This document shows positions 6,121 to 52,366 of a stretch of DNA of 64,000 nt, one piece after another. How positions within the stretch are numbered: the first letter of the stretch is position 1; each line of letters opens with the position of its first letter. The stretch comes from an uncultured archaeon (GTDB lineage: Archaea > Thermoplasmatota > Penumbrarchaeia > JASLWR01). Both the position numbers and the translations under genes were made by a program. The DNA lies in assembly GCA_964342815.1 (NCBI GenBank), contig CAYFHS010000007.1:1-64000 (forward strand), in the 5' to 3' direction. A model generated the notes under the pieces. The model saw nothing but the letters and a program-made list of their open reading frames with translations. It ran no database searches and was not told where the DNA came from.

Positions 6121-7053
6121 CTATATTCTGCAGGTGTTCCAGTATGGATTTATCAGGTCCTCGAATGCTGCCACCGCCGCTACTGCTCCCTCACCGCATG
6201 CTACGATAATCTGCTTGACACCACCGCTGATGTCGCCTACCGCATAAACGTAACGTTCGTTTGTTCTCTGGAATCGGTCTGTATTAACATACCCCTTCTC
6301 GTCCATTTCCAATCCCAGCTCTCCGGCCAAGTGGTTATTCGGGATTTCACCCACGGAAATAAATATGCCATCGAATCTTTCAAGTCTTTCTTCTCCTGTT
6401 GTCGGATTTCTGATCCTTGCTAACTTTTCCGTCCCGTCTTCAGATATCTCCTCGAGAACTGATGACAATATCATCTTGATGCTTCGTTCCTGCATGGCGT
6501 CCTTTAAGGCGCATTCCGCTCTCAATTCATCCTTGCGGTGTATCAATTTTACCCTGCATCCCATATCATGGAGATGGATTGCGTCCATAACAGCCGAGTT
6601 CCCTCCACCCACCACAAGAACACTTTTTCCCCTGAAGAAAAAACCGTCACAAGTTGCGCAATATGAGACTCCCTTTCCCTGGAATTCTTCTTCCCCTTGA
6701 ATGTTGAGTTTGGAATGCCGGGAACCGGTAGCAAGGATCACTGCCCTGGTTTCGTAATCTGTCTTGTCCGTTGTGATGGCGAAGCCTGAGTCCGTGGTTT
6801 TTATTTCCAAAACTTCCTCGAACTCGTTGATTTCGGAGTATTTTTGTGCATGGTCTTTGAACTTTTCAGCAAGGTCCATCCCCTTTAGACCTACGAAGCC
6901 CAAGTAATTCTCGATCCAAGGGGCCTCGCTCACCAAGCCGCCACACATTCCCTTTTCTATTACTATAGTTTTCAAACCGTTCCTGACACAATAGATCGAG
7001 GCGGATAAACCCCCGGGTCCACCTCCGATTATAATCACATCCTTTTTTTCCAT
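6121..7053 (-). CDS. trxB: Thioredoxin-disulfide reductase
   Basis: GGGPGG FAD motif, 'GVSYCATCDG' redox CxxC, 'VGGGNSA', 'YAVGD'. Confidence 0.95.
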   Translation of the reverse strand: MEKKDVIIIGGGPGGLSASIYCVRNGLKTIVIEKGMCGGLVSEAPWIENYLGFVGLKGMDLAEKFKDHAQKYSEINEFEEVLEIKTTDSGFAITTDKTDYETRAVILATGSRHSKLNIQGEEEFQGKGVSYCATCDGFFFRGKSVLVVGGGNSAVMDAIHLHDMGCRVKLIHRKDELRAECALKDAMQERSIKMILSSVLEEISEDGTEKLARIRNPTTGEERLERFDGIFISVGEIPNNHLAGELGLEMDEKGYVNTDRFQRTNERYVYAVGDISGGVKQIIVACGEGAVAAVAAFEDLINPYWNTCRI

Positions 7054-34505: not shown

Positions 34506-36272
34506 TCAAGCGTAATAGAATTCTCCCGACGATTTCTGCTCACGGTCGAGCCTGGAATCCAGCTTGTTCACACGGGGACGATGCGTCTCCTTATCCCTTC
34601 TGAACGTCACGTCGAGATTTTTCAAAAATCGGTTCATTCCGTTTCTCAGGTCGAAGGGCCCAAGGGCGATCCCAAGCTGGGAGGGCTTACCGGTAAATAC
34701 CATAAGAGAGTCCGAGATAAGGTCAATAAAATAAACGTCGTGGTCCACAACCAGCGCGGACGATGATGATTTCTCAACCACCCGACGTATAACCTTCGCC
34801 GCTTCCATACGTTGGTTGGAATCCAGATAGGCCGAGGGTTCGTCGAGAAGGTATATGTCGGCACTCTTTCCAAGCGTAGCTGCGAGAGCGACTCTCTGAA
34901 GTTCACCACCTGAAAGATTTCCCACATTTTTGTTGTAGAGCTTGTTCATTGCCAACGGTCCTTCCACATGAGCTTTGTAAAAGCCCGATTCAGCTTCCTC
35001 ACCCAGCTCGATGTAGATATACTCTCTTACGCTGCAGTCGTGTTCGATGCTGATATATTGGGGTTTGTAAGCCAGCTCAAGTTCTTGCGGAACCTCGCCG
35101 GCATCGGGTTCGAGTTTTCCTGCCAGCATCTCCACTAAAGTGGTCTTCCCTGTGGCATTTGGACCCACCATCCCAATAACCTCTCCGTAATGAACGGTCC
35201 CCTTTCCCGTGCTGAGTGAGAACGAGGGGAATTTCTTTTTCAATTCCGGAAACTCAAGCATGGCCCCCGCCGGCCACTCCCTGCGGGGAGGTTTGACCTC
35301 AAACTTGATCTCGTAGTTCCTGAAACGGATATTCTCCTTCTCGAGAAAGCCGCCAAGATACGTATTGATGGCGTTTCTTGCGCTTCGGGGCTGGGCTACC
35401 ACGCCATACGCGCCTTCCGAACCGTACATAAGGTATACCGACTCGCTCAGGAAATCCAAAATCGCCAGGTCGTGCTCGATCACCATTACCTGTTTTTCCC
35501 GGGACAGTTCCTGAATGACCTTGGATACATTCAGCCTCTGATAAATGTCGAGGTATGATGAGGGTTCGTCGAAAAAGTAAATGTCAGCGTCCTTGAGAAC
35601 CGTGGCGGCAATGGCTACACGCTGCAGCTCACCCCCGGATAGTTTTCCCAGTTCCCGTGTTTTTATCCTGTCGAGCTCCAGTCTCTCGATCATTTCATCG
35701 GCCTTCTTTCCACTGTCGACTCCATGTAAAAGCTCGCTTACGGTACCGGATATTACCTGGGGAAGCTTGTCGACATACTGGGGCTTCAGCGCCGGTCTGA
35801 CCGTCCCGTGGGCCAGTTTCGAGAAATAATTGAACATCTCCGTACCCGCATATCTATCCAGTACCTTCTCCCACTGTCCTTCCTCTTCGAAGGAGCCCAG
35901 GTTTGGTACCTGCTGACCCGAGAGTATATTGATGACGGTGGTCTTTCCTATCCCGTTTGGACCCAGGAGACCAATGACCTTTCCCTCCTGCGGGGCTGGT
36001 AATCGGAAAAGTCGGAAACCGTTCTCTGAGAACTGATGGACTATCTCTTTTTCAAGTTCTTCAGCGAGATTGATGATCTTTATTGCGTCGAAGGGGCACT
36101 TGTGAATGCATATTCCACAGCCCACACAGAGTATCTCGCTTATCTCCGGAATTCCTTTTTTCCCAAGTACTATTGTCTCGTCGCCCATTCTTACGCGCGG
36201 ACAGAACTTGTAACACTCGTGGGAACATTTTTTCGGCTGGCACCTGTCACGCAATAGTACAGCAATCCTCAT
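34506..36272 (-). CDS. rli: Ribosome recycling/biogenesis ATPase ABCE1 (RLI)
   Basis: N-terminal Fe-S 'CQPKKC..EC..FCP' and 'CVGCGIC..KCP'; two ABC domains with 'LSGGELQR'. Confidence 0.97.
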   Translation of the reverse strand: MRIAVLLRDRCQPKKCSHECYKFCPRVRMGDETIVLGKKGIPEISEILCVGCGICIHKCPFDAIKIINLAEELEKEIVHQFSENGFRLFRLPAPQEGKVIGLLGPNGIGKTTVINILSGQQVPNLGSFEEEGQWEKVLDRYAGTEMFNYFSKLAHGTVRPALKPQYVDKLPQVISGTVSELLHGVDSGKKADEMIERLELDRIKTRELGKLSGGELQRVAIAATVLKDADIYFFDEPSSYLDIYQRLNVSKVIQELSREKQVMVIEHDLAILDFLSESVYLMYGSEGAYGVVAQPRSARNAINTYLGGFLEKENIRFRNYEIKFEVKPPRREWPAGAMLEFPELKKKFPSFSLSTGKGTVHYGEVIGMVGPNATGKTTLVEMLAGKLEPDAGEVPQELELAYKPQYISIEHDCSVREYIYIELGEEAESGFYKAHVEGPLAMNKLYNKNVGNLSGGELQRVALAATLGKSADIYLLDEPSAYLDSNQRMEAAKVIRRVVEKSSSSALVVDHDVYFIDLISDSLMVFTGKPSQLGIALGPFDLRNGMNRFLKNLDVTFRRDKETHRPRVNKLDSRLDREQKSSGEFYYA

Positions 36273-37438: not shown

Positions 37439-37633
37439 GATTTTTTTCCACCAATTTCTTCAACCCGATATCGTACATCCAGTAGAATATCTCATCAATA
37501 AATATTTAGAATTATAACAATTTATAAATTGGGATTCGTGCTTTTCTATGATCGTCAGAATTTGCGCTGAAAACAGAAATGGAAACCAAATCAATAAAGA
37601 AAAATCAATCCATATGAATGTCATAAAAAAAAA

Positions 37634-38587
37634 TCAAACATAGCTGAAAGTGTCGTAACTGTCCGCTAAATTCTCTCGGTCCTGATCAGCCTTATGATAG
37701 GCCTCCACGAACTGGCCGCAGTTGCTGCCGATCTTGTTCTCCTCCTGCTCCCCAATGCTAAGAAGGGCGTCAAAACCCTTTTCCTTGATCCGTTCCAGAA
37801 TCCGTTCACCCTCCCCGGATTCTATGGGTTTACCAATGATTCCCGGGGCCAGGCTGTTTCGGTTTGCCATAAAGGTTGGATTCAAAGGGGTCATCTTGAT
37901 GAAGAACAGGTCCGGAGAGAAATTCTTTCTCAGGACTTTCGGGTCCAGTATGAAGTCCTTTGCGAGTATGAAGTTCAACGTTACCTTCTTGCCGCCTTTA
38001 TTGTGGAATCTATCAGCATAATCTGCGATCTGCAGAAATGTCATCTTTTTTATAGGGATTATCCTATCTCTTATCACGGGGTCGGTTGAATGTATGGAGA
38101 ACTGAAGCTGAAAGCTCGTCATGTAATGTCTCTTTTTTATATCCAATAATCCTTCGAAGAACTTATCCCTGCCAGCCGGTCCAACCGTTGAAAGCGAGGG
38201 AATAAAGCCGGGGGCGTCGTACTTTTTAGGGAACTCGTCCAAAACGGTAAGAACTTCGTCATTGAAAGCAGGCTCTCCCATTCTGGAAAACTGTATCTTG
38301 AACTTCGTCACCGGTATCCTGCTCCCTCCGAAGTGCCTCCCCACCACGTGGTCTATCTGAGCGAACATATCCCCCGCGTTGACCTTTCCCCGGTACGTGC
38401 CCCCTGCATCGCACATGATACATCCAACGGGACAACCAAGAAGAGTGGAAATGATCATCACCATCTTCTGATTCCGGTCGAATGGCGGTTGTAACGATTC
38501 CACGAACTCAATGTAATGACCTTGGTCCGTGCGGGCCAGATACACCGTTGCCAGGTCGTCCCTGCCGTAACGTTCGATAATATTCAT
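37634..38587 (-). CDS. RlmN/Cfr-like radical SAM protein, N-terminally short
   Basis: 'GCPVGCIMC' CxxxCxxC, 'RMGEPAFN', 'LQFSIHS', C-terminal 'NCGQ'. Confidence 0.85.
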   Translation of the reverse strand: MNIIERYGRDDLATVYLARTDQGHYIEFVESLQPPFDRNQKMVMIISTLLGCPVGCIMCDAGGTYRGKVNAGDMFAQIDHVVGRHFGGSRIPVTKFKIQFSRMGEPAFNDEVLTVLDEFPKKYDAPGFIPSLSTVGPAGRDKFFEGLLDIKKRHYMTSFQLQFSIHSTDPVIRDRIIPIKKMTFLQIADYADRFHNKGGKKVTLNFILAKDFILDPKVLRKNFSPDLFFIKMTPLNPTFMANRNSLAPGIIGKPIESGEGERILERIKEKGFDALLSIGEQEENKIGSNCGQFVEAYHKADQDRENLADSYDTFSYV

Positions 38588-38601
38588 TTAAACATCTTTT
38601 C

Positions 38602-39492
38602 CTATTCTTTTTCACCAAGATAGATGTCCATTGCAGTATGCATTCCGTCGCCGATGGATACTGAGGCTTGTCTCGTCAGACCTCGGATTACGTCTCCAGC
38701 GAAATACAGGCCTGAGATTTTTATTTTTCCATCAAAACATTTTCTGATGTCAGTTGAAAAGAAATCAGTTGACGGCACCCGACCTATCGCTACCAGAAGA
38801 AAATCAACCCGGATACTTTTTTTTGTTTTTCCCGGGGTCGTTATCAAATGCAGCAGCAAGCCCTCACCTTCCGGAACGATTTCAACAACTGACGTTGACA
38901 TCAGATATTCGATATTGTCGTTAACGGAAACCCGGTCCTGCAGCAGAGGAAGGCATTTGCTGCAAGTACCTCGGTTCAGGATCACCACGCGGTTTTTCCT
39001 CGCGAGGTTCAGCGCATAATCGAATGCAGAGTCTCCTGCACCTATCACTGCTATCTTTTTTTCTTCAACTTCCTTCAAGTGAACAACCTCATAGAACAAT
39101 AGATCCTCGGCCATTTCGGGGAACGGTCCCAATTTGAGCTTTCTTGGTTGGGTACCAGTCGCAATGATAAGATTCATTGAACAAACGGTTCCCGAAGATG
39201 CAGTGACCACCTCGAACAGTCCATCATTGTAATCCGCATTTATTACCTCATCCTTGAGAACATCCACATGAAGCCGGTCCAGCTGTCTTTTAAATAACTT
39301 TACCAGTTCCGTTCCGGAGACCCCATTGGGAAAACCAGGATAATTCTCTATCAGATGAGCGTTTCTCAGCAGTCCCCCGATCTCGTTCTTCTCCATCATC
39401 ACAAAATCGATACCGCATCTTTTCAACTGTATTGCAGCGGTGATTCCCCCCGGTCCCGCGCCTAATATGCAGGTATTTATAGTCTTTTTCAA
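38602..39492 (-). CDS. TrxB-like NAD(P)/FAD oxidoreductase lacking the redox CxxC
   Basis: 'GAGPGG', 'IENYPGF', 'IGAGDSAFD', 'FAGD'; the CxxC position reads 'FYEVVHL'. Confidence 0.85.
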   Translation of the reverse strand: MKKTINTCILGAGPGGITAAIQLKRCGIDFVMMEKNEIGGLLRNAHLIENYPGFPNGVSGTELVKLFKRQLDRLHVDVLKDEVINADYNDGLFEVVTASSGTVCSMNLIIATGTQPRKLKLGPFPEMAEDLLFYEVVHLKEVEEKKIAVIGAGDSAFDYALNLARKNRVVILNRGTCSKCLPLLQDRVSVNDNIEYLMSTSVVEIVPEGEGLLLHLITTPGKTKKSIRVDFLLVAIGRVPSTDFFSTDIRKCFDGKIKISGLYFAGDVIRGLTRQASVSIGDGMHTAMDIYLGEKE

Positions 39493-40142
39493 CGGAATGC
39501 CTCCATTAATCGACGCATGAGAGTAGGTACGGCAAAACCGTGTGAAAGATTCAAAAAAGCGGCCAGGTGAAACGCTTCGTTGTAGGTTGCCGTACCGTCC
39601 ATGGGGATAAAAACGTTGAAATTTCTATTAAAAGCACTCCTCGCCGTGGTCTCACAGCAGAGATGTGTCATCACTCCGCAGATTACAATTTCCTTAACTC
39701 CGTTTGTATAAAGGATATTTTCTAAATCGGTATGAAGAAATGCATCGTAGGTCGATTTTTCCAATATTATCCCGTGTCCGGTATCCAACGATGTAATTAT
39801 CTCACTTCTCTCATCGTCTCTTGCCGTGGAGTCTCCCCACCATTTCATCATTGTGTCCGGTGAGCCGTTCGATAAGTGTCTTGTAAATATCACAGGGCGC
39901 CCGAGCTTATAGTATAGTTCTATTAATCCGGAGATTCCGGGAATTATGGCAGGTGCCGACGGAACGAAAGCATGTGAACTCGCTTGTATAAAATAGTTCT
40001 GCATATCAATTACGAGAAGTGCGGAATCAACGGGAATAAATGAATAACGTTCGTGCGAAAGGTGGTAAATATCCTTTTTTTTTATCCAACTAACCGCTTT
40101 ATCCTCAATGTTATCGCGTGTAAAATATGCGGTTTTTTTCAT
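39489..40142 (-). CDS. Isochorismatase-family cysteine hydrolase
   Basis: 'LLVIDMQNYF', 'EKSTYDAF', 'GVMTHLCCETTAR' (Asp-Lys-Cys triad). Confidence 0.92.
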   Translation of the reverse strand: MKKTAYFTRDNIEDKAVSWIKKKDIYHLSHERYSFIPVDSALLVIDMQNYFIQASSHAFVPSAPAIIPGISGLIELYYKLGRPVIFTRHLSNGSPDTMMKWWGDSTARDDERSEIITSLDTGHGIILEKSTYDAFLHTDLENILYTNGVKEIVICGVMTHLCCETTARSAFNRNFNVFIPMDGTATYNEAFHLAAFLNLSHGFAVPTLMRRLMEAFR

Positions 40143-40537
40143 AATTTAGTGAAATATCAAGTACGTTATACATTTTACCGTTGAATTTATCAGGGCTATG
40201 CGTTTTTCGGGGGGTAGATTCGATGAATCGGACTAACCGTCTCCTTATGGGATACGGTAAGAATAGCTGGTGAAAATCCTTCCATTAATGCTGAAAATAT
40301 TTATACTTGTATTAATTGTAGGTAAAAGAGATGTTCCACAACATTTATATACTTGTAAAATTCACGTTCCAATTTTTTATTTATACACAATGGTGTTATA
40401 CTAAGCCTCAGAGACCATGCTTATCCGGCAAGGTATAATCGGAAAACAAATGATAAGGACCTAGCAAATCCTCAAGCAATTTCCATTTGTTTGTAAGGAG
40501 GAGATTAAAGGTCGATTAATAATTATGGAGGAATAAA

Positions 40538-40981
40538 ATGAACAGATTGGATATTGCCAAAAAGGTAAGAAGGAAGATACTTGCGCATATTAAGAACAAC
40601 CCTGGAAGACATTTCAGTGAGATATTGAGACGGTTGAAGTTATCGTCGGGTCGACTGACTTACCATATATTGAAGCTAGAAGAAGCTGAAAAGATATTTG
40701 CAAAATACGACGGATACTGGAAACGGTTTTACCCCATATCCGCGGTGGACGACGAAATACCCGAATCCCTCACACCCAAGCAGGCCGAGATACTTCGAAT
40801 AGTTGGTAAACATCCGGGATCGACCTATATGAAAATAGTTGACAGGTGTGGGAAAACCCGCCAGGCGATATATTATCATATGAAGAAACTCGTTGAAACG
40901 GGGAAGATAAGAATTGATGTTGTAAAGGGAAAACATTTTTTCTACGTCGAAAAATCGGGAGAAGGGTCCAATGGAAAATAA
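40538..40981 (+). CDS. Double winged-helix transcriptional regulator
   Basis: 'ILAHIKNNPGRHFSEI...L.YH...LE' plus a second HTH. Confidence 0.82.
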   Translation: MNRLDIAKKVRRKILAHIKNNPGRHFSEILRRLKLSSGRLTYHILKLEEAEKIFAKYDGYWKRFYPISAVDDEIPESLTPKQAEILRIVGKHPGSTYMKIVDRCGKTRQAIYYHMKKLVETGKIRIDVVKGKHFFYVEKSGEGSNGK

Positions 40982-41381
40982 AGGGATTTACAACAAAAAC
41001 CGATGCAACATATTCAATTTCATCATCGAAAATCCCGGAAAACATTTCAGCGATATAAAACGGCAATTGAACCTTACGAAACGTGGATTGGGCTATCACC
41101 TGGAGAAAATGGTAAAAGAGGGTTTGATAGCAGAGAAACCCCTGGGTATCTTCAAGTTCTATTACCCTGCCAGTATGGAACAACCCGCAACAAAACTGAC
41201 CCCTATGCAGCAGAGGATATTCGATATCATTAGTGAAGAACCATGTACCACCGATGAAATCGCGGATGTAATGGATAAATCCAAACGTTCGGTGGAATAT
41301 CATCTTGGAAATCTATCTCGACAGGGGTATATTGTAAAGAAGAAAGCCAAAAATAAGGGCTTTTACTGGCATGCGGAATAG
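40971..41381 (+). CDS. Double winged-helix transcriptional regulator, paralog of the upstream gene
   Basis: 'IFNFIIENPGKHFSDI...L.YHL'; same two-HTH layout. Confidence 0.82.
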   Translation: MENKGIYNKNRCNIFNFIIENPGKHFSDIKRQLNLTKRGLGYHLEKMVKEGLIAEKPLGIFKFYYPASMEQPATKLTPMQQRIFDIISEEPCTTDEIADVMDKSKRSVEYHLGNLSRQGYIVKKKAKNKGFYWHAE

Positions 41382-41521: not shown

Positions 41522-43003
41522 TCAGGAAACTGCCTGTTTCAAACGATCGTACATAATGTCGGCGCTTCTCCATCGATCTTCCTTGCGTTTCTCGAGGGCC
41601 TTTAGGATAACGGTGTCCACTCTCGCAGTTACTTCGGGATTATATTTGGAAGGTGGGGGCACTTCCTCGTTTATTATATTTCCCATAATACCTACCGGGT
41701 CGTCGTCGAAGAACGGGTTATAATCCGTAAGCATCTCGTACCCAACGATTCCTATCTGAAATATATCTGTGCTCCAATCCACCATCCCGTACTTTTTCCT
41801 GCTGATCTGCTCGGGAGCGCTGTATGCAAGTGTTCCCTTTGCTCCCACGGTCTTCGAAGCTGAATCGGACGCCATCAGTTTTCCAATTCCCCAATCTGTC
41901 AGCTTGGGAATTCCTTCTCTGGTAAAAAGTATATTTTCCGGTTTAATATCCCGATGGACAGAGGCCATTCGGTGTGCGTAAGATATGGCATCTACCAATT
42001 GGATAAATATGCTCATTGCCTCCTGAGTTGACAACCTCCGGTCATCCATAAGCTCCTTCAGGCTGCCTCCTTCCATCAGCTCCATAACAATACTAGGGAT
42101 GGGATCCAGATTGTAATCATAAAAAAACACGATGTTCTTATGCTCCAGCTTGTTCCACATCTTCGCTTCCGATTCGAACTTATCGTAAATGGATGAATCC
42201 AGCGTTTGATCGATGAATTTAGGCATTTTTATTGCCACCTCGCGGCCGCTGTCATCAGTGGCCTTATATACTGTAGCAAAACCCCCGGAACCTAGCTTAT
42301 GGGTGATGGTGTAACCCGGAATGGTATTGGCAAGGGTGGGTGAAACACCTTTCGTGGGAGTTCTGGCCCTAACCTGGATATTTCGGATCATGGGGCCCGT
42401 TTGTCCGCCGACGGACGGGGGAGCCTGTCGGATATTGGGTCCACTTACGGAAGGCGGCGGGGTGCTTTTTTGGAGATCTTGTCGCGGAGGGCGGGGAACT
42501 GCGGTGCCGGAGGCCTGCATCGCCTGCATGTTCATCAACGCTCTTTGCTGAGCCTGTATCTGCTGCATTTGGGTCTTATATTTCCACTTATTTTCCTCTT
42601 CCTTCCAGTATTGGACCCACAATATCAATGCAATTAGACCGGGTGTGGCCAGAACCACATAGCCCGTCAGCCCTATCACCATGTTAAAAATGGCCGCGAA
42701 ATAGACGAATCCTTTGGATTTTCCCTTCAATGCTTTCACACCACCGATTATACCTACGATACCGGCGGCAAGGTAGATAAAACTAAAAACCAGGCAAAGC
42801 GTACCATATATACCCATGATGGAATCAGAGCTCTCTTCATCGCCATCGGATGGATATCCATATTCATCTTCATAATAATACTCATCATCGGTGGAACTGG
42901 TTCCAAGAAAGGCAATGCTAGAGATTAATATTCCTATAAAGGCAATGATGGCAATTGCGCCAGATACTATCAACAACACTCCAACCGCGGTATTTTTTCC
43001 CAT
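41522..43003 (-). CDS. Membrane-anchored Hanks-type Ser/Thr protein kinase
   Basis: 3-4 N-terminal TM segments; 'LGSGGFATVY', 'VAIK', 'HRDIKPENIL', 'DWG', 'GTLAYSAPEQ'. Confidence 0.93.
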   Translation of the reverse strand: MGKNTAVGVLLIVSGAIAIIAFIGILISSIAFLGTSSTDDEYYYEDEYGYPSDGDEESSDSIMGIYGTLCLVFSFIYLAAGIVGIIGGVKALKGKSKGFVYFAAIFNMVIGLTGYVVLATPGLIALILWVQYWKEEENKWKYKTQMQQIQAQQRALMNMQAMQASGTAVPRPPRQDLQKSTPPPSVSGPNIRQAPPSVGGQTGPMIRNIQVRARTPTKGVSPTLANTIPGYTITHKLGSGGFATVYKATDDSGREVAIKMPKFIDQTLDSSIYDKFESEAKMWNKLEHKNIVFFYDYNLDPIPSIVMELMEGGSLKELMDDRRLSTQEAMSIFIQLVDAISYAHRMASVHRDIKPENILFTREGIPKLTDWGIGKLMASDSASKTVGAKGTLAYSAPEQISRKKYGMVDWSTDIFQIGIVGYEMLTDYNPFFDDDPVGIMGNIINEEVPPPSKYNPEVTARVDTVILKALEKRKEDRWRSADIMYDRLKQAVS

Positions 43004-48004: not shown

Positions 48005-49108
48005 TTAAACACGGCTATATGCCCCAATAAAATCTTTTTTGAATTTTTCGAAATTTCCCTCGTCTATTGAAACGCGTATATTCTTCATCAGTCGCATCAT
48101 GAAGTGAAGATTGTGAACGGTTAATAAGCGCATTGCCAGCAGTTCCTTTACGCCGAATAGATGGTGAATATAGGCCCGAGAGTAGCCTTTGCATGTGGTG
48201 CAGCTGCATCCTTCTTCGATCTTGTCCAATCGTCCCTTGAAGCTTGATGCGTTTATATTCATGGGTCCCCTATTCGTCAACGCGGTCCTGTGCCTCGCAT
48301 TCCTGGTTGGATATACGCTGTCGAATATATCGACTCCCATCTCCACCGCCCGAATAATATCCACAGGCGTTCCAACGCCCATCAGGTATTTAGGTCTGTG
48401 GCGATGAAGGATTTCCATTTGGTATCCTACAGCCTTGTACATTGCTACTTTTGACTCCCCCAGGCAAAGACCCCCGATACCGTAACCGTGGCATTCGATT
48501 TTGTTCAATTCATGGGCACTTTTCTCACGGTATTGACGACTGGTCCCGCCCTGGGCGATGCCGAATTTCATCTGGTCCCGCCTTTTGTGTGCCTCGGAAA
48601 ACTCCATGGCCCAACGTGTGGTCCTTTCAACCGCTTTCTCCACCCTAGCCTCGCTGCTGTCCAGAGGGGCGCAGTCATCCAGGGACATAGCCACGTCCGC
48701 ACCAATCTTCTCCTGCATAGTGACTGAAAGGACGGGGGTGATCAACTCCTGACGTCCGTCGAAGGGGCTTTTCAGCACAATTCCTTCATCCGTCACCCTG
48801 GGTTTAAAGCCCTCGCGGACGATCTGAAAACCTCCCGAATCGGTAAAGATACTTCTAGGCCAATTCATGAAACTGTGAATCCCTCCAGCTTTTTCAATCA
48901 GCTCCGTTCCCGGTCTGAGGTGCAGGAGATATGCGTTGGAGATAATGTTTTGTACATCAAGTTCAAGCAGATCATCCGCGGACAGCGTCTTTACCGATGC
49001 CTTGGTGGCAACTGGCATAAAAACCGGTGTTCTAACGCTAAGATGGGCGGTATGAAGGATACCCGTCCGGGCCCCCCGGGATCCCGTTTCATTGGTGACG
49101 CTAAACAT
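48005..49108 (-). CDS. tgt: Bacterial-type tRNA-guanine(34) transglycosylase
   Basis: 'RTPVFMPVAT', 'NAYLLHLRPG', 'TDSGGFQ', 'SLDDC', 'GIAQGG', 'GGLCLGE', 'YLMGVG', 'DIFDSV', Zn site 'CSCTTC...H'; 367 aa, no PUA domain. Confidence 0.92.
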   Translation of the reverse strand: MFSVTNETGSRGARTGILHTAHLSVRTPVFMPVATKASVKTLSADDLLELDVQNIISNAYLLHLRPGTELIEKAGGIHSFMNWPRSIFTDSGGFQIVREGFKPRVTDEGIVLKSPFDGRQELITPVLSVTMQEKIGADVAMSLDDCAPLDSSEARVEKAVERTTRWAMEFSEAHKRRDQMKFGIAQGGTSRQYREKSAHELNKIECHGYGIGGLCLGESKVAMYKAVGYQMEILHRHRPKYLMGVGTPVDIIRAVEMGVDIFDSVYPTRNARHRTALTNRGPMNINASSFKGRLDKIEEGCSCTTCKGYSRAYIHHLFGVKELLAMRLLTVHNLHFMMRLMKNIRVSIDEGNFEKFKKDFIGAYSRV

Positions 49109-50377: not shown

Positions 50378-52366
50378 ATGAAAATTTATATGGAAATTGA
50401 AATACTAAACCAGGAAGGATTCGCTTCAGTCAAACAGGTTCGATCAAGATCAAATGGCGATAATGATTCTTTCATGACTCCAGCACCAGTATTCGTTCCA
50501 TTCCTTCATCATGGAGGTGTGATGAATGGGGCTGTTTCGGACAACAAAAAAGCTCATGTTGAGAAGATCCCTTCTTTCTTCCCGATAATCAACATAACGG
50601 GTCTAGGAAATAATCAACACGTAGAAGAAAATTTTAAATTATATCTCTCTGTGAATGACAAAGAGCTGGGAGGACCCAATGGCTCCGGAAAAACCCTGTT
50701 CTGCCGTCCCAAGGGACTTCTTTACCCTTCTGATCTAGTTGATAATGAATCCGGGGAAGATATTGCATTTTTTCAAATGCACTCTCCCGATATTACTAAT
50801 GCCGGACCTGGCGTGGTAGCGCCAACTCATCTAGTGCACCAATATGAGAACCCCCGCCGAATAATTAAACTTATCCATGGCTTGAGAAACCAATTCACAG
50901 AGGAAAATCTTTTCTACGCTCCGGGGGTAGCAGATCCTTACCGGCTGCCTTATCTCGCTTATCTCGGATTCGATCTATTCGATACGGTCAAGGCAGCCCG
51001 GGATTCCACTTCATTGATTTTCTGGGACACGATGGCTTCTCACCCGCTTTCCAGTATAACGTATCAGGTTCTTGATGCCTGTAACTGCAACGGCTGCGAA
51101 AAACTGAAAGAAGTCCTCGGTGACGCAGGTTCATTCAAGGAAATTACAAAGCGCGGTGTTGGAATAAAGATAGCTGAATTGACAAGTTTTCTCTATATCC
51201 ACAACTGTAAGAAACTCACTGACGCAGTCCGGGAAACCGGCGAATTAATAAAAACCGGAAATTTATATGCCTACGCACACTCCCATTCTTTAAAAAATCC
51301 CTCTGCCGCTGCGATTCTGAGGCTTTTTCACCGGGAAATGGCTTCCGAGCTTGTGAAGATATCGCCTCGGGAATCGCGTCATACGCTTATAATCGGTCAA
51401 CGCGAAATGATCCATCTACCGGATATCATCAGTTACGTAAATCGCTTGAAAGAAACCTATATTCCACCAAAACGAGATATTCTCCTGCTACTGCCCTGCT
51501 CATATAAAAAACCCTATTCCCGTTCCAAGACTCACCGAATTATCAAAAAGGCAATTTGGGAACACCCACTGAGATGGAACCTTCATTCCGTGGTAATAAC
51601 CTCGCCTCTGGGTATCGTACCCATGGAACTCGAGAACAGCTATCCCGCAAGGAACTACGATATACCTGTGACTGGTGACTGGGATTCGGATGAGAGACAG
51701 AGAGTGGATGAACTTCTTGGATGCTTGATTGAGCGAGGGTCCTATGAATTCACCATTGGATACCTTGGCAAAGAGAACTTTATTATAAGAGATCTGATCG
51801 AAAAAAACTTCGCCCACAGGTATTTCATAGATGAGGAACCGACTACACCCGTAGCGCTCGATGGCTTGAGTGATCTCCTGAACTCAATAATGGAGCAAGG
51901 CAATCTTGTCCCGAACACCAAGAAGAGAACTGGATCGGGAATCCCATATAAAACGAGAGACGCGTGGGGAGTTTTAACATTCCAGTTCCGTACCGAAATC
52001 GCGGAAAGACTGATGAAGGCCTCCAGTTTGAAGGGTAGATGGCCGATTTATTCATTGGTTGACCGAGAAACGAAAGTGCAGATCGCAAAATACATTCCTG
52101 AGCGGGGTATGTTCTCGCTGGGAAAAGGTGCAGCTCAGAGATTAAATGGAATCGAATGTAACAGGGTCTTTATCGAGGATTTCCATCCCAAAGGGACAAT
52201 ATTCTGTGTGGGGATCACGAGAGCCGATCTCAATATACGCCCCAAAGATGAGGTATTGGTATATTACGGGGAAGAGCTTCGAGCAATAGGGAGAGCGCTT
52301 GTAAATGGCCAAGCTATGAGTCAGAGAACGCGCGGAGCTGGTGTGAAGGTTAGACACAGATTCTAA
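50378..52366 (+). CDS. arcS: Archaeosine synthase ArcS (TgtA2) with C-terminal PUA domain
   Basis: 'LLLPCSYKKPYSRSKTH', 'ITSPLG.VPMELE..YPA..YDIPVTGDWD', PUA 'GAGVKVRH'. Confidence 0.9.
   Translation: MKIYMEIEILNQEGFASVKQVRSRSNGDNDSFMTPAPVFVPFLHHGGVMNGAVSDNKKAHVEKIPSFFPIINITGLGNNQHVEENFKLYLSVNDKELGGPNGSGKTLFCRPKGLLYPSDLVDNESGEDIAFFQMHSPDITNAGPGVVAPTHLVHQYENPRRIIKLIHGLRNQFTEENLFYAPGVADPYRLPYLAYLGFDLFDTVKAARDSTSLIFWDTMASHPLSSITYQVLDACNCNGCEKLKEVLGDAGSFKEITKRGVGIKIAELTSFLYIHNCKKLTDAVRETGELIKTGNLYAYAHSHSLKNPSAAAILRLFHREMASELVKISPRESRHTLIIGQREMIHLPDIISYVNRLKETYIPPKRDILLLLPCSYKKPYSRSKTHRIIKKAIWEHPLRWNLHSVVITSPLGIVPMELENSYPARNYDIPVTGDWDSDERQRVDELLGCLIERGSYEFTIGYLGKENFIIRDLIEKNFAHRYFIDEEPTTPVALDGLSDLLNSIMEQGNLVPNTKKRTGSGIPYKTRDAWGVLTFQFRTEIAERLMKASSLKGRWPIYSLVDRETKVQIAKYIPERGMFSLGKGAAQRLNGIECNRVFIEDFHPKGTIFCVGITRADLNIRPKDEVLVYYGEELRAIGRALVNGQAMSQRTRGAGVKVRHRF

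What the first reader, a model, noticed from the sequence alone, without database searches (positions are those of the whole stretch)
37634..40142. Uncharacterised three-gene module: cysteine hydrolase + CxxC-less TrxB-like reductase + atypical RlmN-like radical SAM enzyme
Seen: tightly linked genes (4-nt overlap; 14-nt gap) with their own upstream intergenic region. The radical SAM protein keeps CxxxCxxC, MGEP and the C-terminal CGQ Cys. It lacks the N-terminal domain of RlmN, and Ile replaces the Cys in the 'TLCVSSQVGC' position (VMIISTLLGC). The flavoprotein has lost its CxxC, although a normal trxB exists at 6121. Established: RlmN/Cfr use the CGQ Cys as methyl carrier and the upstream Cys to resolve the covalent adduct; CxxC-less TrxB folds often act as ferredoxin/flavodoxin reductases. 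Inference: a pathway using methyl-Cys radical chemistry with a different outcome or a non-RNA substrate, with a dedicated electron donor and an amide hydrolase. It could be a new cofactor, nucleoside or natural-product modification system.
Basis: partly seen in the sequence, partly recalled or inferred. Interest (0 to 1): 0.7.

Follow-up and report, generated by a model that had tools for sequence, protein, structure and literature searches.

The report
Radical-SAM trio linked to folate synthesis
Three coupled genes (an amidase, a flavoprotein and a cut-down relative of the RNA methylase RlmN) form an unstudied enzyme set shared by hundreds of anaerobic bacteria and archaea, and its distribution suggests it may supply the p-aminobenzoate part of folate in organisms that lack the usual genes for it.

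Summary
On the minus strand, 37634-40142, lie an isochorismatase-fold cysteine hydrolase, a thioredoxin-reductase-like flavoprotein without the redox CxxC, and a 317-aa RlmN/Cfr-like radical SAM protein. The last keeps CxxxCxxC and the C-terminal GSNCGQ cysteine. It lacks RlmN's N-terminal domain and has Ile at the resolving-Cys position. This scan has noted the same trio at least 12 times on other DNA.

The trio is conserved across many phyla. The flavoprotein is adjacent in about 70 of 73 loci and the hydrolase in about 57 of 69. Flavoprotein-rSAM and rSAM-hydrolase fusions both exist. Elusimicrobia keep all three genes in a different order. Bacteria with the trio also have a canonical RlmN, so it does not replace RlmN.

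New here is a link to folate:
- 49 of 50 trio genomes have dihydropteroate synthase, and none has a PabB above the curated cut-off.
- In Thermotogota and in a second phylum, the trio and PabB were never found in the same genome.
- Dehalococcoidia carry a coupled folP-hydrolase-flavoprotein-rSAM operon.

My best reading, at about 0.35, is a PabB-independent supply of p-aminobenzoate. The substrate and the chemistry are unknown.

The parts
39489..40142 (-). Isochorismatase-fold cysteine amidohydrolase (217 aa, P0003)
   Evidence: PF00857 at E 5.8e-39. D46, K129 and C162 are invariant in 22 orthologues. It scores far below the cut-offs of all named NCBIfam hydrolases.
38602..39492 (-). TrxR-fold FAD/NAD(P)H flavoprotein without the redox CxxC (296 aa, P0002; TTG start overlapping the hydrolase stop)
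   Evidence: PF07992 at E 3.3e-28 and TIGR01292 at 161 bits against a cut-off of 343. No conserved Cys in 75 orthologues. Junction sequence.
37634..38587 (-). Short RlmN/Cfr-like radical SAM enzyme (317 aa, P0001): C52/C56/C59 cluster motif, invariant C290, I45 at the resolving-Cys position
   Evidence: AlphaFold model pLDDT 86. Best folds are 6fz6, RlmN and Cfr at TM 0.66-0.68.
40143..40537 (.). Upstream intergenic region shared with a divergent double wHTH regulator gene; AT-rich with TATA-like boxes
   Evidence: Sequence. The promoter was not mapped.
37625..37633 (-). T9 run directly after the rSAM stop codon (archaeal terminator-like)
   Evidence: Sequence. Inference only.

Best explanation
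Shown: the three genes encode one self-contained enzyme system.

Inferred from the families: the flavoprotein takes reducing equivalents from NAD(P)H through FAD and passes them to the radical SAM enzyme, either to its [4Fe-4S] cluster or to a covalent intermediate. The radical SAM enzyme uses RlmN-type chemistry, with C290 as the only auxiliary cysteine, on a small N-heteroaromatic or aromatic metabolite. The cysteine amidohydrolase removes an amide from the substrate or the product.

Inferred from distribution: the physiological role is in folate synthesis, most likely as a PabB/PabC-independent source of the p-aminobenzoate that dihydropteroate synthase needs.

Speculative chemistry, about 5-8% likely: a methylene from SAM is added next to the ring nitrogen of a nicotinamide or pyridinium ring. 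The ring then opens and recloses, giving 4-aminobenzamide, which the amidase hydrolyses to p-aminobenzoate.
For: Unit:
- The flavoprotein is directly upstream in about 70 of 73 loci and the hydrolase in about 57 of 69, with no other conserved neighbour and no conserved small ORF.
- Flavoprotein(N)-rSAM(C) fusions arose in two clades, and rSAM(N)-hydrolase(C) fusions also exist.
- Elusimicrobia keep the trio with the hydrolase downstream.
- All 5 genomes tested without an adjacent hydrolase encode a strong orthologue elsewhere.

Not RlmN: 4 of 4 bacteria with the trio also have an RlmN above the cut-off. In the tree, the trio clade is separated from RlmN by a long branch.

Folate link:
- DHPS is above its cut-off in 49 of 50 trio genomes of many phyla, and FolK is present in 39 of 50.
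- PabB is above its cut-off in 0 of 50, and only 1 of 50 has two TrpE/PabB paralogues. In 10 of 10 genomes checked, the single hit sits beside trpD, so it is TrpE.
- Thermotogota: all 41 rSAM+ genomes are DHPS+, all 14 DHPS- genomes are rSAM-, and PabB occurs only in 5 rSAM-/DHPS+ genomes. One of these has a pabABC-folPBK operon.
- Second phylum: 0 of 6 trio+ genomes have two paralogues, against 37 of 55 trio- genomes. Fisher p values run from 0.0024 to 1e-9.
- Dehalococcoidia have a folP-hydrolase-flavoprotein-rSAM operon in 5 loci, and another Chloroflexota genome has folK-x-folP 3.6 kb away.
- Two complete trio genomes have FolE, FolB, FolK and FolP but no PabB.
- The window's own genome has DHPS and no TrpE/PabB hit.
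Against: - No biochemistry exists for this module.
- Related genomes are not independent, so the p values overstate the signal.
- Many trio-less DHPS+ genomes also lack PabB: 11 of 16 Thermotogota and the trio-less archaeal relatives. Absence of PabB is therefore common in these groups anyway.
- The PabB cut-off is strict; only 4 of 14 control genomes pass it.
- Physical linkage to folate genes was found only in Chloroflexota.
- No known route to p-aminobenzoate needs a radical SAM enzyme.
- PabC and pABA transporters were not profiled.
- Most genomes sampled are MAGs.
Confidence: 0.35

Rival explanations
1. The trio modifies or breaks down some other small metabolite unrelated to folate, such as a nucleobase, a pyridine nucleotide or another cofactor. 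On this reading, the pattern of DHPS present and PabB absent reflects only the lifestyle of the anaerobes that carry the trio.
For: - The genomic context varies, with no conserved transporter or regulator.
- A sister clade is fused to a QueT-type transporter component and to an MTA/SAH nucleosidase.
- Another sister lineage lies next to pncB-pncA.
- Many trio-less relatives also lack PabB.
Against: - DHPS is present in 49 of 50 trio genomes, and all 14 DHPS-negative Thermotogota lack the trio.
- Dehalococcoidia have a coupled folP-trio operon.
- PabB is avoided even in genomes that make chorismate and tryptophan.
Confidence: 0.35
2. The radical SAM protein is an RNA (tRNA or rRNA) C-methylase like RlmN/Cfr. 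The flavoprotein acts as its private reductase, and the hydrolase has an accessory role.
For: RlmN/Cfr are the closest sequences and folds. The CGQ cysteine is invariant. JGI annotates relatives as a 23S rRNA methyltransferase.
Against: - It lacks the N-terminal RNA-binding domain and the resolving Cys.
- It scores 36.8 bits against a cut-off of 290.
- It coexists with a true RlmN.
- It is coupled to, and in places fused with, a small-molecule-type amidohydrolase.
- The family's median pI is 6.3.
Confidence: 0.08
3. The conserved cysteine is not a methyl carrier. The enzyme is a radical lyase or reductase that uses C290 as a hydrogen-atom relay, and the flavoprotein re-reduces it.
For: - The resolving Cys is absent in the whole clade and in its sister clades.
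- An Asp invariably follows the cluster motif, unlike in RlmN.
- The flavoprotein partner is obligate.
Against: The core motifs and fold are those of class A methyl synthases, and the Cys sits in the same CGQ loop.
Confidence: 0.2

Closest known systems
RlmN / Cfr (class A radical SAM methyl synthases; TIGR00048, TIGR04432; PDB 3rfa, 5hr7, 6fz6, 9p0p)
   Same: Radical SAM core fold, the CxxxCxxC, GEP and NP(T) motifs, and the C-terminal Cys in a CGQ loop.
   Different: - No N-terminal domain.
- Ile/Leu/Met/Val instead of the resolving Cys.
- Asp after the cluster motif.
- Scores about 250 bits below the family cut-off.
- Forms a separate clade.
- Has an obligate flavoprotein partner and a hydrolase partner.
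- Coexists with a true RlmN.
Thioredoxin reductase and TrxR-type ferredoxin-NADP+ reductases (PDB 4zn0, 3ab1, 3lzw)
   Same: Two-dinucleotide-domain fold with FAD and NAD(P)H motifs.
   Different: - No redox CxxC and no conserved Cys at all.
- Shorter than the FNR type.
- Fused to a radical SAM enzyme in some lineages.
- That its GAGDxAxDYAL motif is FNR-like is my recollection and was not tested.
Isochorismatase-family amidohydrolases (nicotinamidase PncA, N-carbamoylsarcosine amidase, RutB, biuret hydrolase)
   Same: Same fold and the Asp-Lys-Cys triad.
   Different: - A distinct subfamily, far below every equivalog cut-off.
- Has a conserved N-terminal extension and a WW motif.
- Sometimes fused to the C-terminus of the rSAM protein.
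PabA/PabB/PabC (chorismate-dependent p-aminobenzoate synthesis) and Chlamydia CT610/CADD (alternative pABA synthase)
   Same: Proposed to give the same physiological output, judged from the complementary distribution with PabB and the linkage to folP.
   Different: No homology to either. CADD needs O2, whereas this trio is oxygen-independent radical SAM chemistry found in anaerobes. The function is not demonstrated.

Membership tests
RlmN/Cfr class A radical SAM methyl synthases | CxxxCxxC radical SAM cluster motif and RlmN-like core fold | tested here: met
   C52, C56 and C59 are invariant. Foldseek top hits are 6fz6, 3rfa and 9p0p at TM 0.55-0.68.
RlmN/Cfr class A radical SAM methyl synthases | C-terminal methyl-carrier Cys (E. 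coli C355) in a CGQ loop | tested here: met
   C290 in GSNCGQ aligns with Cfr AACGQ and is invariant in 127 of 127 relatives. Methylation itself was not tested.
RlmN/Cfr class A radical SAM methyl synthases | Resolving Cys seven residues before the cluster motif (E. coli C118) | tested here: not met
   The position holds I45. Across 127 relatives it is I/L/M/V in 125, and Cys only in the distant RlmN-like P0129.
RlmN/Cfr class A radical SAM methyl synthases | N-terminal RNA-recognition domain | tested here: not met
   The match starts at model position 79 of 355, and the protein starts at the beta-hairpin.
RlmN/Cfr class A radical SAM methyl synthases | Score above the curated family cut-off | tested here: not met
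   TIGR00048 gives 36.8 bits against 290, and TIGR04432 gives 19.4 against 550.
RlmN/Cfr class A radical SAM methyl synthases | m2A/m8A formation on rRNA or tRNA | not testable with these tools
   Needs biochemistry.
Thioredoxin reductase (TIGR01292) | Redox-active CxxC in the NADPH domain, and score above the cut-off | tested here: not met
   No CxxC at the canonical site and no conserved Cys. The score is 161 bits against 343.
Isochorismatase-like cysteine hydrolases (PF00857) | Domain above the gathering score, and the Asp-Lys-Cys triad | tested here: met
   134 bits against 27. D46, K129 and C162 are invariant.
Queuine lyase QueL (C. difficile Q186P0) | Sequence relationship to the characterised enzyme; context with queK/qrtT and a preQ1 riboswitch | tested here: inconclusive
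   The QueL sequence could not be fetched. Only a QueT-rSAM-MtnN fusion in a sister clade hints at a link. Twelve sister loci showed no preQ1 riboswitch and no queK neighbours.
Folate (pABA-branch) biosynthesis genes | Co-occurrence with DHPS, avoidance of PabB, and clustering with fol genes | tested here: met
   Clustering was seen only in Chloroflexota, and the function was not tested.

The most novel reading that the evidence does not exclude
The trio is the missing oxygen-independent, PabB/PabC-independent p-aminobenzoate synthase of anaerobic bacteria and archaea. In its boldest form, it builds the aniline ring by inserting a SAM-derived carbon next to the nitrogen of a nicotinamide ring and then recyclising it, so that the ring nitrogen becomes the amino group. 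The nicotinamidase-like amidase then finishes the product.
Probability: 0.25. Interest if true: 0.9.

Novelty: new variant of a known kind. Interest (0 to 1): 0.74.

Why it matters
Many anaerobes and archaea have dihydropteroate synthase but no recognisable p-aminobenzoate genes. A comparative-genomics survey already listed pABA-branch genes among the predicted missing folate genes (PMC1971073). If this trio fills that gap, several things follow:
- It would close a hole in a core vitamin pathway.
- It would correct a widespread mis-annotation of these proteins as '23S rRNA methyltransferase'.
- It would add a third function to the RlmN/Cfr type of radical SAM chemistry.
- It would improve predictions of vitamin exchange in sediments, marine water columns and guts.

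Even if the folate link fails, an obligate flavoprotein-radical SAM pair that is repeatedly fused is a useful model for how these enzymes obtain electrons.

Tried and rejected
- Complex prediction of flavoprotein plus rSAM with FAD and a 4Fe-4S cluster gave no verdict (score 0.00). It counts neither for nor against binding.
- PADLOC gave no defence-system match.
- The ESM Atlas returned only the family's own unnamed clusters.
- No conserved small ORF lies beside the module, so it is not a peptide-maturation system.
- The queuosine/7-deazaguanine lead did not hold. The QueL sequence was not obtainable. Sister loci have no preQ1 riboswitch. The small rSAM genes next to the P0254-like genes are not QueE. 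The window's own genome has QueC and arcTGT, so it needs no salvage.
- Neighbours of unlinked hydrolase copies share nothing.
- The FolK-like tblastx hits in L086, L155 and L157 came from flanking DNA of short query loci and were dropped.
- The Chloroflexota phylum sample was uninformative, with 1 of 61 genomes carrying the rSAM.
- The TrpE-like gene 5 kb from the trio in one Thermotogota clade is simply the trp operon.
- One marine metatranscriptome holds two contigs over 37664-37958. DNA carry-over is not excluded, so this is only a weak hint of expression.
- Literature searches found no paper on this module.
Full report
**1. What is there**

The window is archaeal. It carries ABCE1/RLI, HVO_0163-type regulators and DUF63. 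Its nearest relative in the genome collection is a Thermoplasmatota MAG. The genome is 4.35 Mb and 89% complete.

Three minus-strand ORFs sit at 39489-40142, 38602-39492 and 37634-38587.
- The hydrolase stop overlaps the flavoprotein TTG start (TTGA).
- Fourteen bases separate the flavoprotein stop from the rSAM ATG.
- A 395-nt AT-rich spacer lies upstream, and a T9 run follows the last stop.

Family assignments:
- Hydrolase: PF00857, E 6e-39.
- Flavoprotein: PF07992. The TrxR model gives 161 bits against a cut-off of 343.
- rSAM protein: no Pfam match at E below 0.01, and only weak RlmN/Cfr matches (36.8 bits against 290).

**2. The radical SAM protein**

A profile of 18 relatives finds Cfr (9p0p, E 5e-11) and RlmN among solved structures. 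That alignment puts I45 on the resolving Cys and C290 (GSNCGQ) on the methyl-carrier Cys.

In 127 relatives, C52, C56, C59 and C290 are invariant. Position 45 is I/L/M/V, and D60 follows the cluster motif.

An AlphaFold model (pLDDT 86) is closest to 6fz6, RlmN and Cfr, at TM 0.55-0.68.

One detail needs adding: the flavoprotein has a non-conserved C177-x-x-C180 away from the TrxR site.

**3. The trio is a unit**

In 87 distinct loci from many bacterial and archaeal phyla:
- The flavoprotein gene is directly upstream in about 70 of 73 loci with enough sequence.
- The hydrolase is upstream of the flavoprotein in about 57 of 69.
- No other gene family is shared by more than 7 loci.
- No small ORF is conserved.

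Further evidence for coupling:
- Flavoprotein(N)-rSAM(C) fusions of 595-648 aa exist, as do rSAM(N)-hydrolase(C) fusions of 503-544 aa.
- In a maximum-likelihood tree the flavoprotein fusions fall in two different clades. The hydrolase fusions sit with Elusimicrobia genes, whose hydrolase lies downstream of the rSAM gene.
- All five genomes tested without an adjacent hydrolase have a strong orthologue elsewhere, at 200-242 bits.
- The rSAM gene is present in 29 of 41 relatives of this genome and in 41 of 71 Thermotogota.

**4. It is not RlmN**

Four of four bacteria with the trio also have an RlmN above the cut-off. The window's genome and a Methanogenium genome have none. In the tree, the clade that holds the trio family is separated from RlmN by a branch of 2.7 changes per site.

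Two sister groups appear nested within that clade:
- One is P0264-like, from gut bacteria and partly in phage-like contexts.
- The other is P0254-like.

Both lack the partner genes. Both also lack the resolving Cys and keep the C-terminal CG[QN].

Two sister proteins are fusions of a QueT-type ECF S-component, the rSAM domain and an MTA/SAH nucleosidase. This points to an imported small molecule as the substrate in that sister group. I could not show that queuine lyase QueL belongs to this clade.

**5. Folate link**

I tested that claim.

Physical linkage:
- In five Dehalococcoidia loci a bona fide dihydropteroate synthase (TIGR01496, 274 bits against a cut-off of 163) directly precedes the hydrolase. 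One of these loci also carries folK.
- In another Chloroflexota genome, folK-x-folP lies 3.6 kb downstream.
- Linkage was not seen outside Chloroflexota.

Distribution is the stronger signal:
- Of 50 trio genomes from many phyla, 49 have DHPS above its cut-off and 39 have FolK.
- None of the 50 has PabB above its cut-off, and only one has two TrpE/PabB-family hits.
- In 10 of 10 genomes checked, the single hit lies beside trpD, so it is TrpE. In one Thermotogota clade it heads a complete trp operon.

Thermotogota sample of 71 genomes:
- All 41 rSAM-positive genomes are DHPS-positive.
- All 14 DHPS-negative genomes are rSAM-negative.
- PabB above the cut-off occurs only in five rSAM-negative genomes. 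One of these has a pabA-pabB-pabC-x-folP-folB-folK operon.

Second phylum, 61 genomes:
- None of six trio genomes has two high-scoring paralogues.
- 37 of 55 trio-less genomes do.

Fisher tests give p = 6e-7, 0.001, 0.0024 and 1.4e-9. Related genomes are not independent, so these values overstate the case.

Two complete trio genomes have FolE, FolB, FolK and FolP but no PabB. The window's own genome has DHPS and no TrpE/PabB hit.

**6. Reading**

The data fit a non-orthologous replacement of the PabB route to p-aminobenzoate. Several points weaken this:
- Many trio-less genomes in the same groups also lack PabB.
- The PabB cut-off is strict.
- PabC and pABA uptake were not profiled.
- No chemistry is known that would make p-aminobenzoate with these enzymes.

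I rate the pABA role at about 0.35, and an unrelated small-molecule role about the same.

How the parts would work is inference from their families. NAD(P)H reduces FAD. FAD reduces the cluster, or it resolves a Cys290-CH2-substrate adduct in place of the missing Cys. The amidase acts on an aromatic or heteroaromatic carboxamide, as its relatives PncA and pyrazinamidase do.

One scheme links all the parts. An RlmN-type methylene is added ortho to the ring nitrogen of a nicotinamide or pyridinium ring. Recyclisation then makes the ring nitrogen an exocyclic amine para to the carboxamide. Finally the amide is hydrolysed. The chemical precedent (recyclisation of 2-methylpyridinium salts to anilines) is from my own knowledge, not from a tool. 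The only supporting hints are:
- the nicotinamidase-superfamily amidase;
- the NAD(P)-binding partner;
- a sister lineage lying next to pncB-pncA.

**7. Status**

No paper on this module was found in the searchable library. The scan has reported the trio at least 12 times on other DNA. Earlier follow-ups reached 'conserved, sometimes fused, function unknown'. The new results here are:
- the trio's tie to DHPS and its avoidance of PabB;
- the hydrolase orthologues found elsewhere in genomes where the hydrolase is not adjacent;
- the rearranged Elusimicrobia form;
- the placement of the sister clades.

Noticed in passing
   Followed up: yes
window 40538-40981 (+) and 40971-41381 (+): Two overlapping genes for double winged-helix regulators (HVO_0163 N-terminal HTH type), divergent from the trio. 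They may regulate it.
   Followed up: no
window 48044-49075 (-) and 50816-51661 (+): Two archaeosine-TGT-like paralogues, in ORFs of 412 and 676 aa (the longer may be ArcS-like), lie 8-11 kb from the trio. The true arcTGT is on another contig.
   Followed up: no
window 34506-36272 (-), 41522-43003 (-): ABCE1/RLI ATPase, and a membrane-anchored (DUF4064) Ser/Thr protein kinase.
   Followed up: no
proteins P0252, P0265 (Bacilli MAGs): Triple fusions of a QueT-type ECF S-component, a sister-clade RlmN-like rSAM domain and an MTA/SAH nucleosidase. They suggest that the sister enzyme acts on an imported small molecule, possibly a queuosine precursor.
   Followed up: partly
L113, L118, L120 (gut Alphaproteobacteria); L117: The sister-clade rSAM gene follows pncB (NAPRTase) and a PncA-size isochorismatase gene. 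In L117 it lies in a tRNA array with a RAGATH-14 RNA, which looks phage-like.
   Followed up: partly
L209 (G151:C1:2010500-2019500): A trio-less Thermotogota genome has a classical pabA-pabB-pabC-x-folP-folB-folK operon.
   Followed up: partly
Thermotogota rSAM matches (e.g. G128, G131, G139, G145, G144, G162): Several matches are reported with one stop inside (TGA or TAA). This may simply be the gene end being read through by the model.
   Followed up: no
L047, L048, L051, L067 (Krumholzibacteriota): An MttB-family methyltransferase gene lies directly upstream of the trio in this one lineage.
   Followed up: partly
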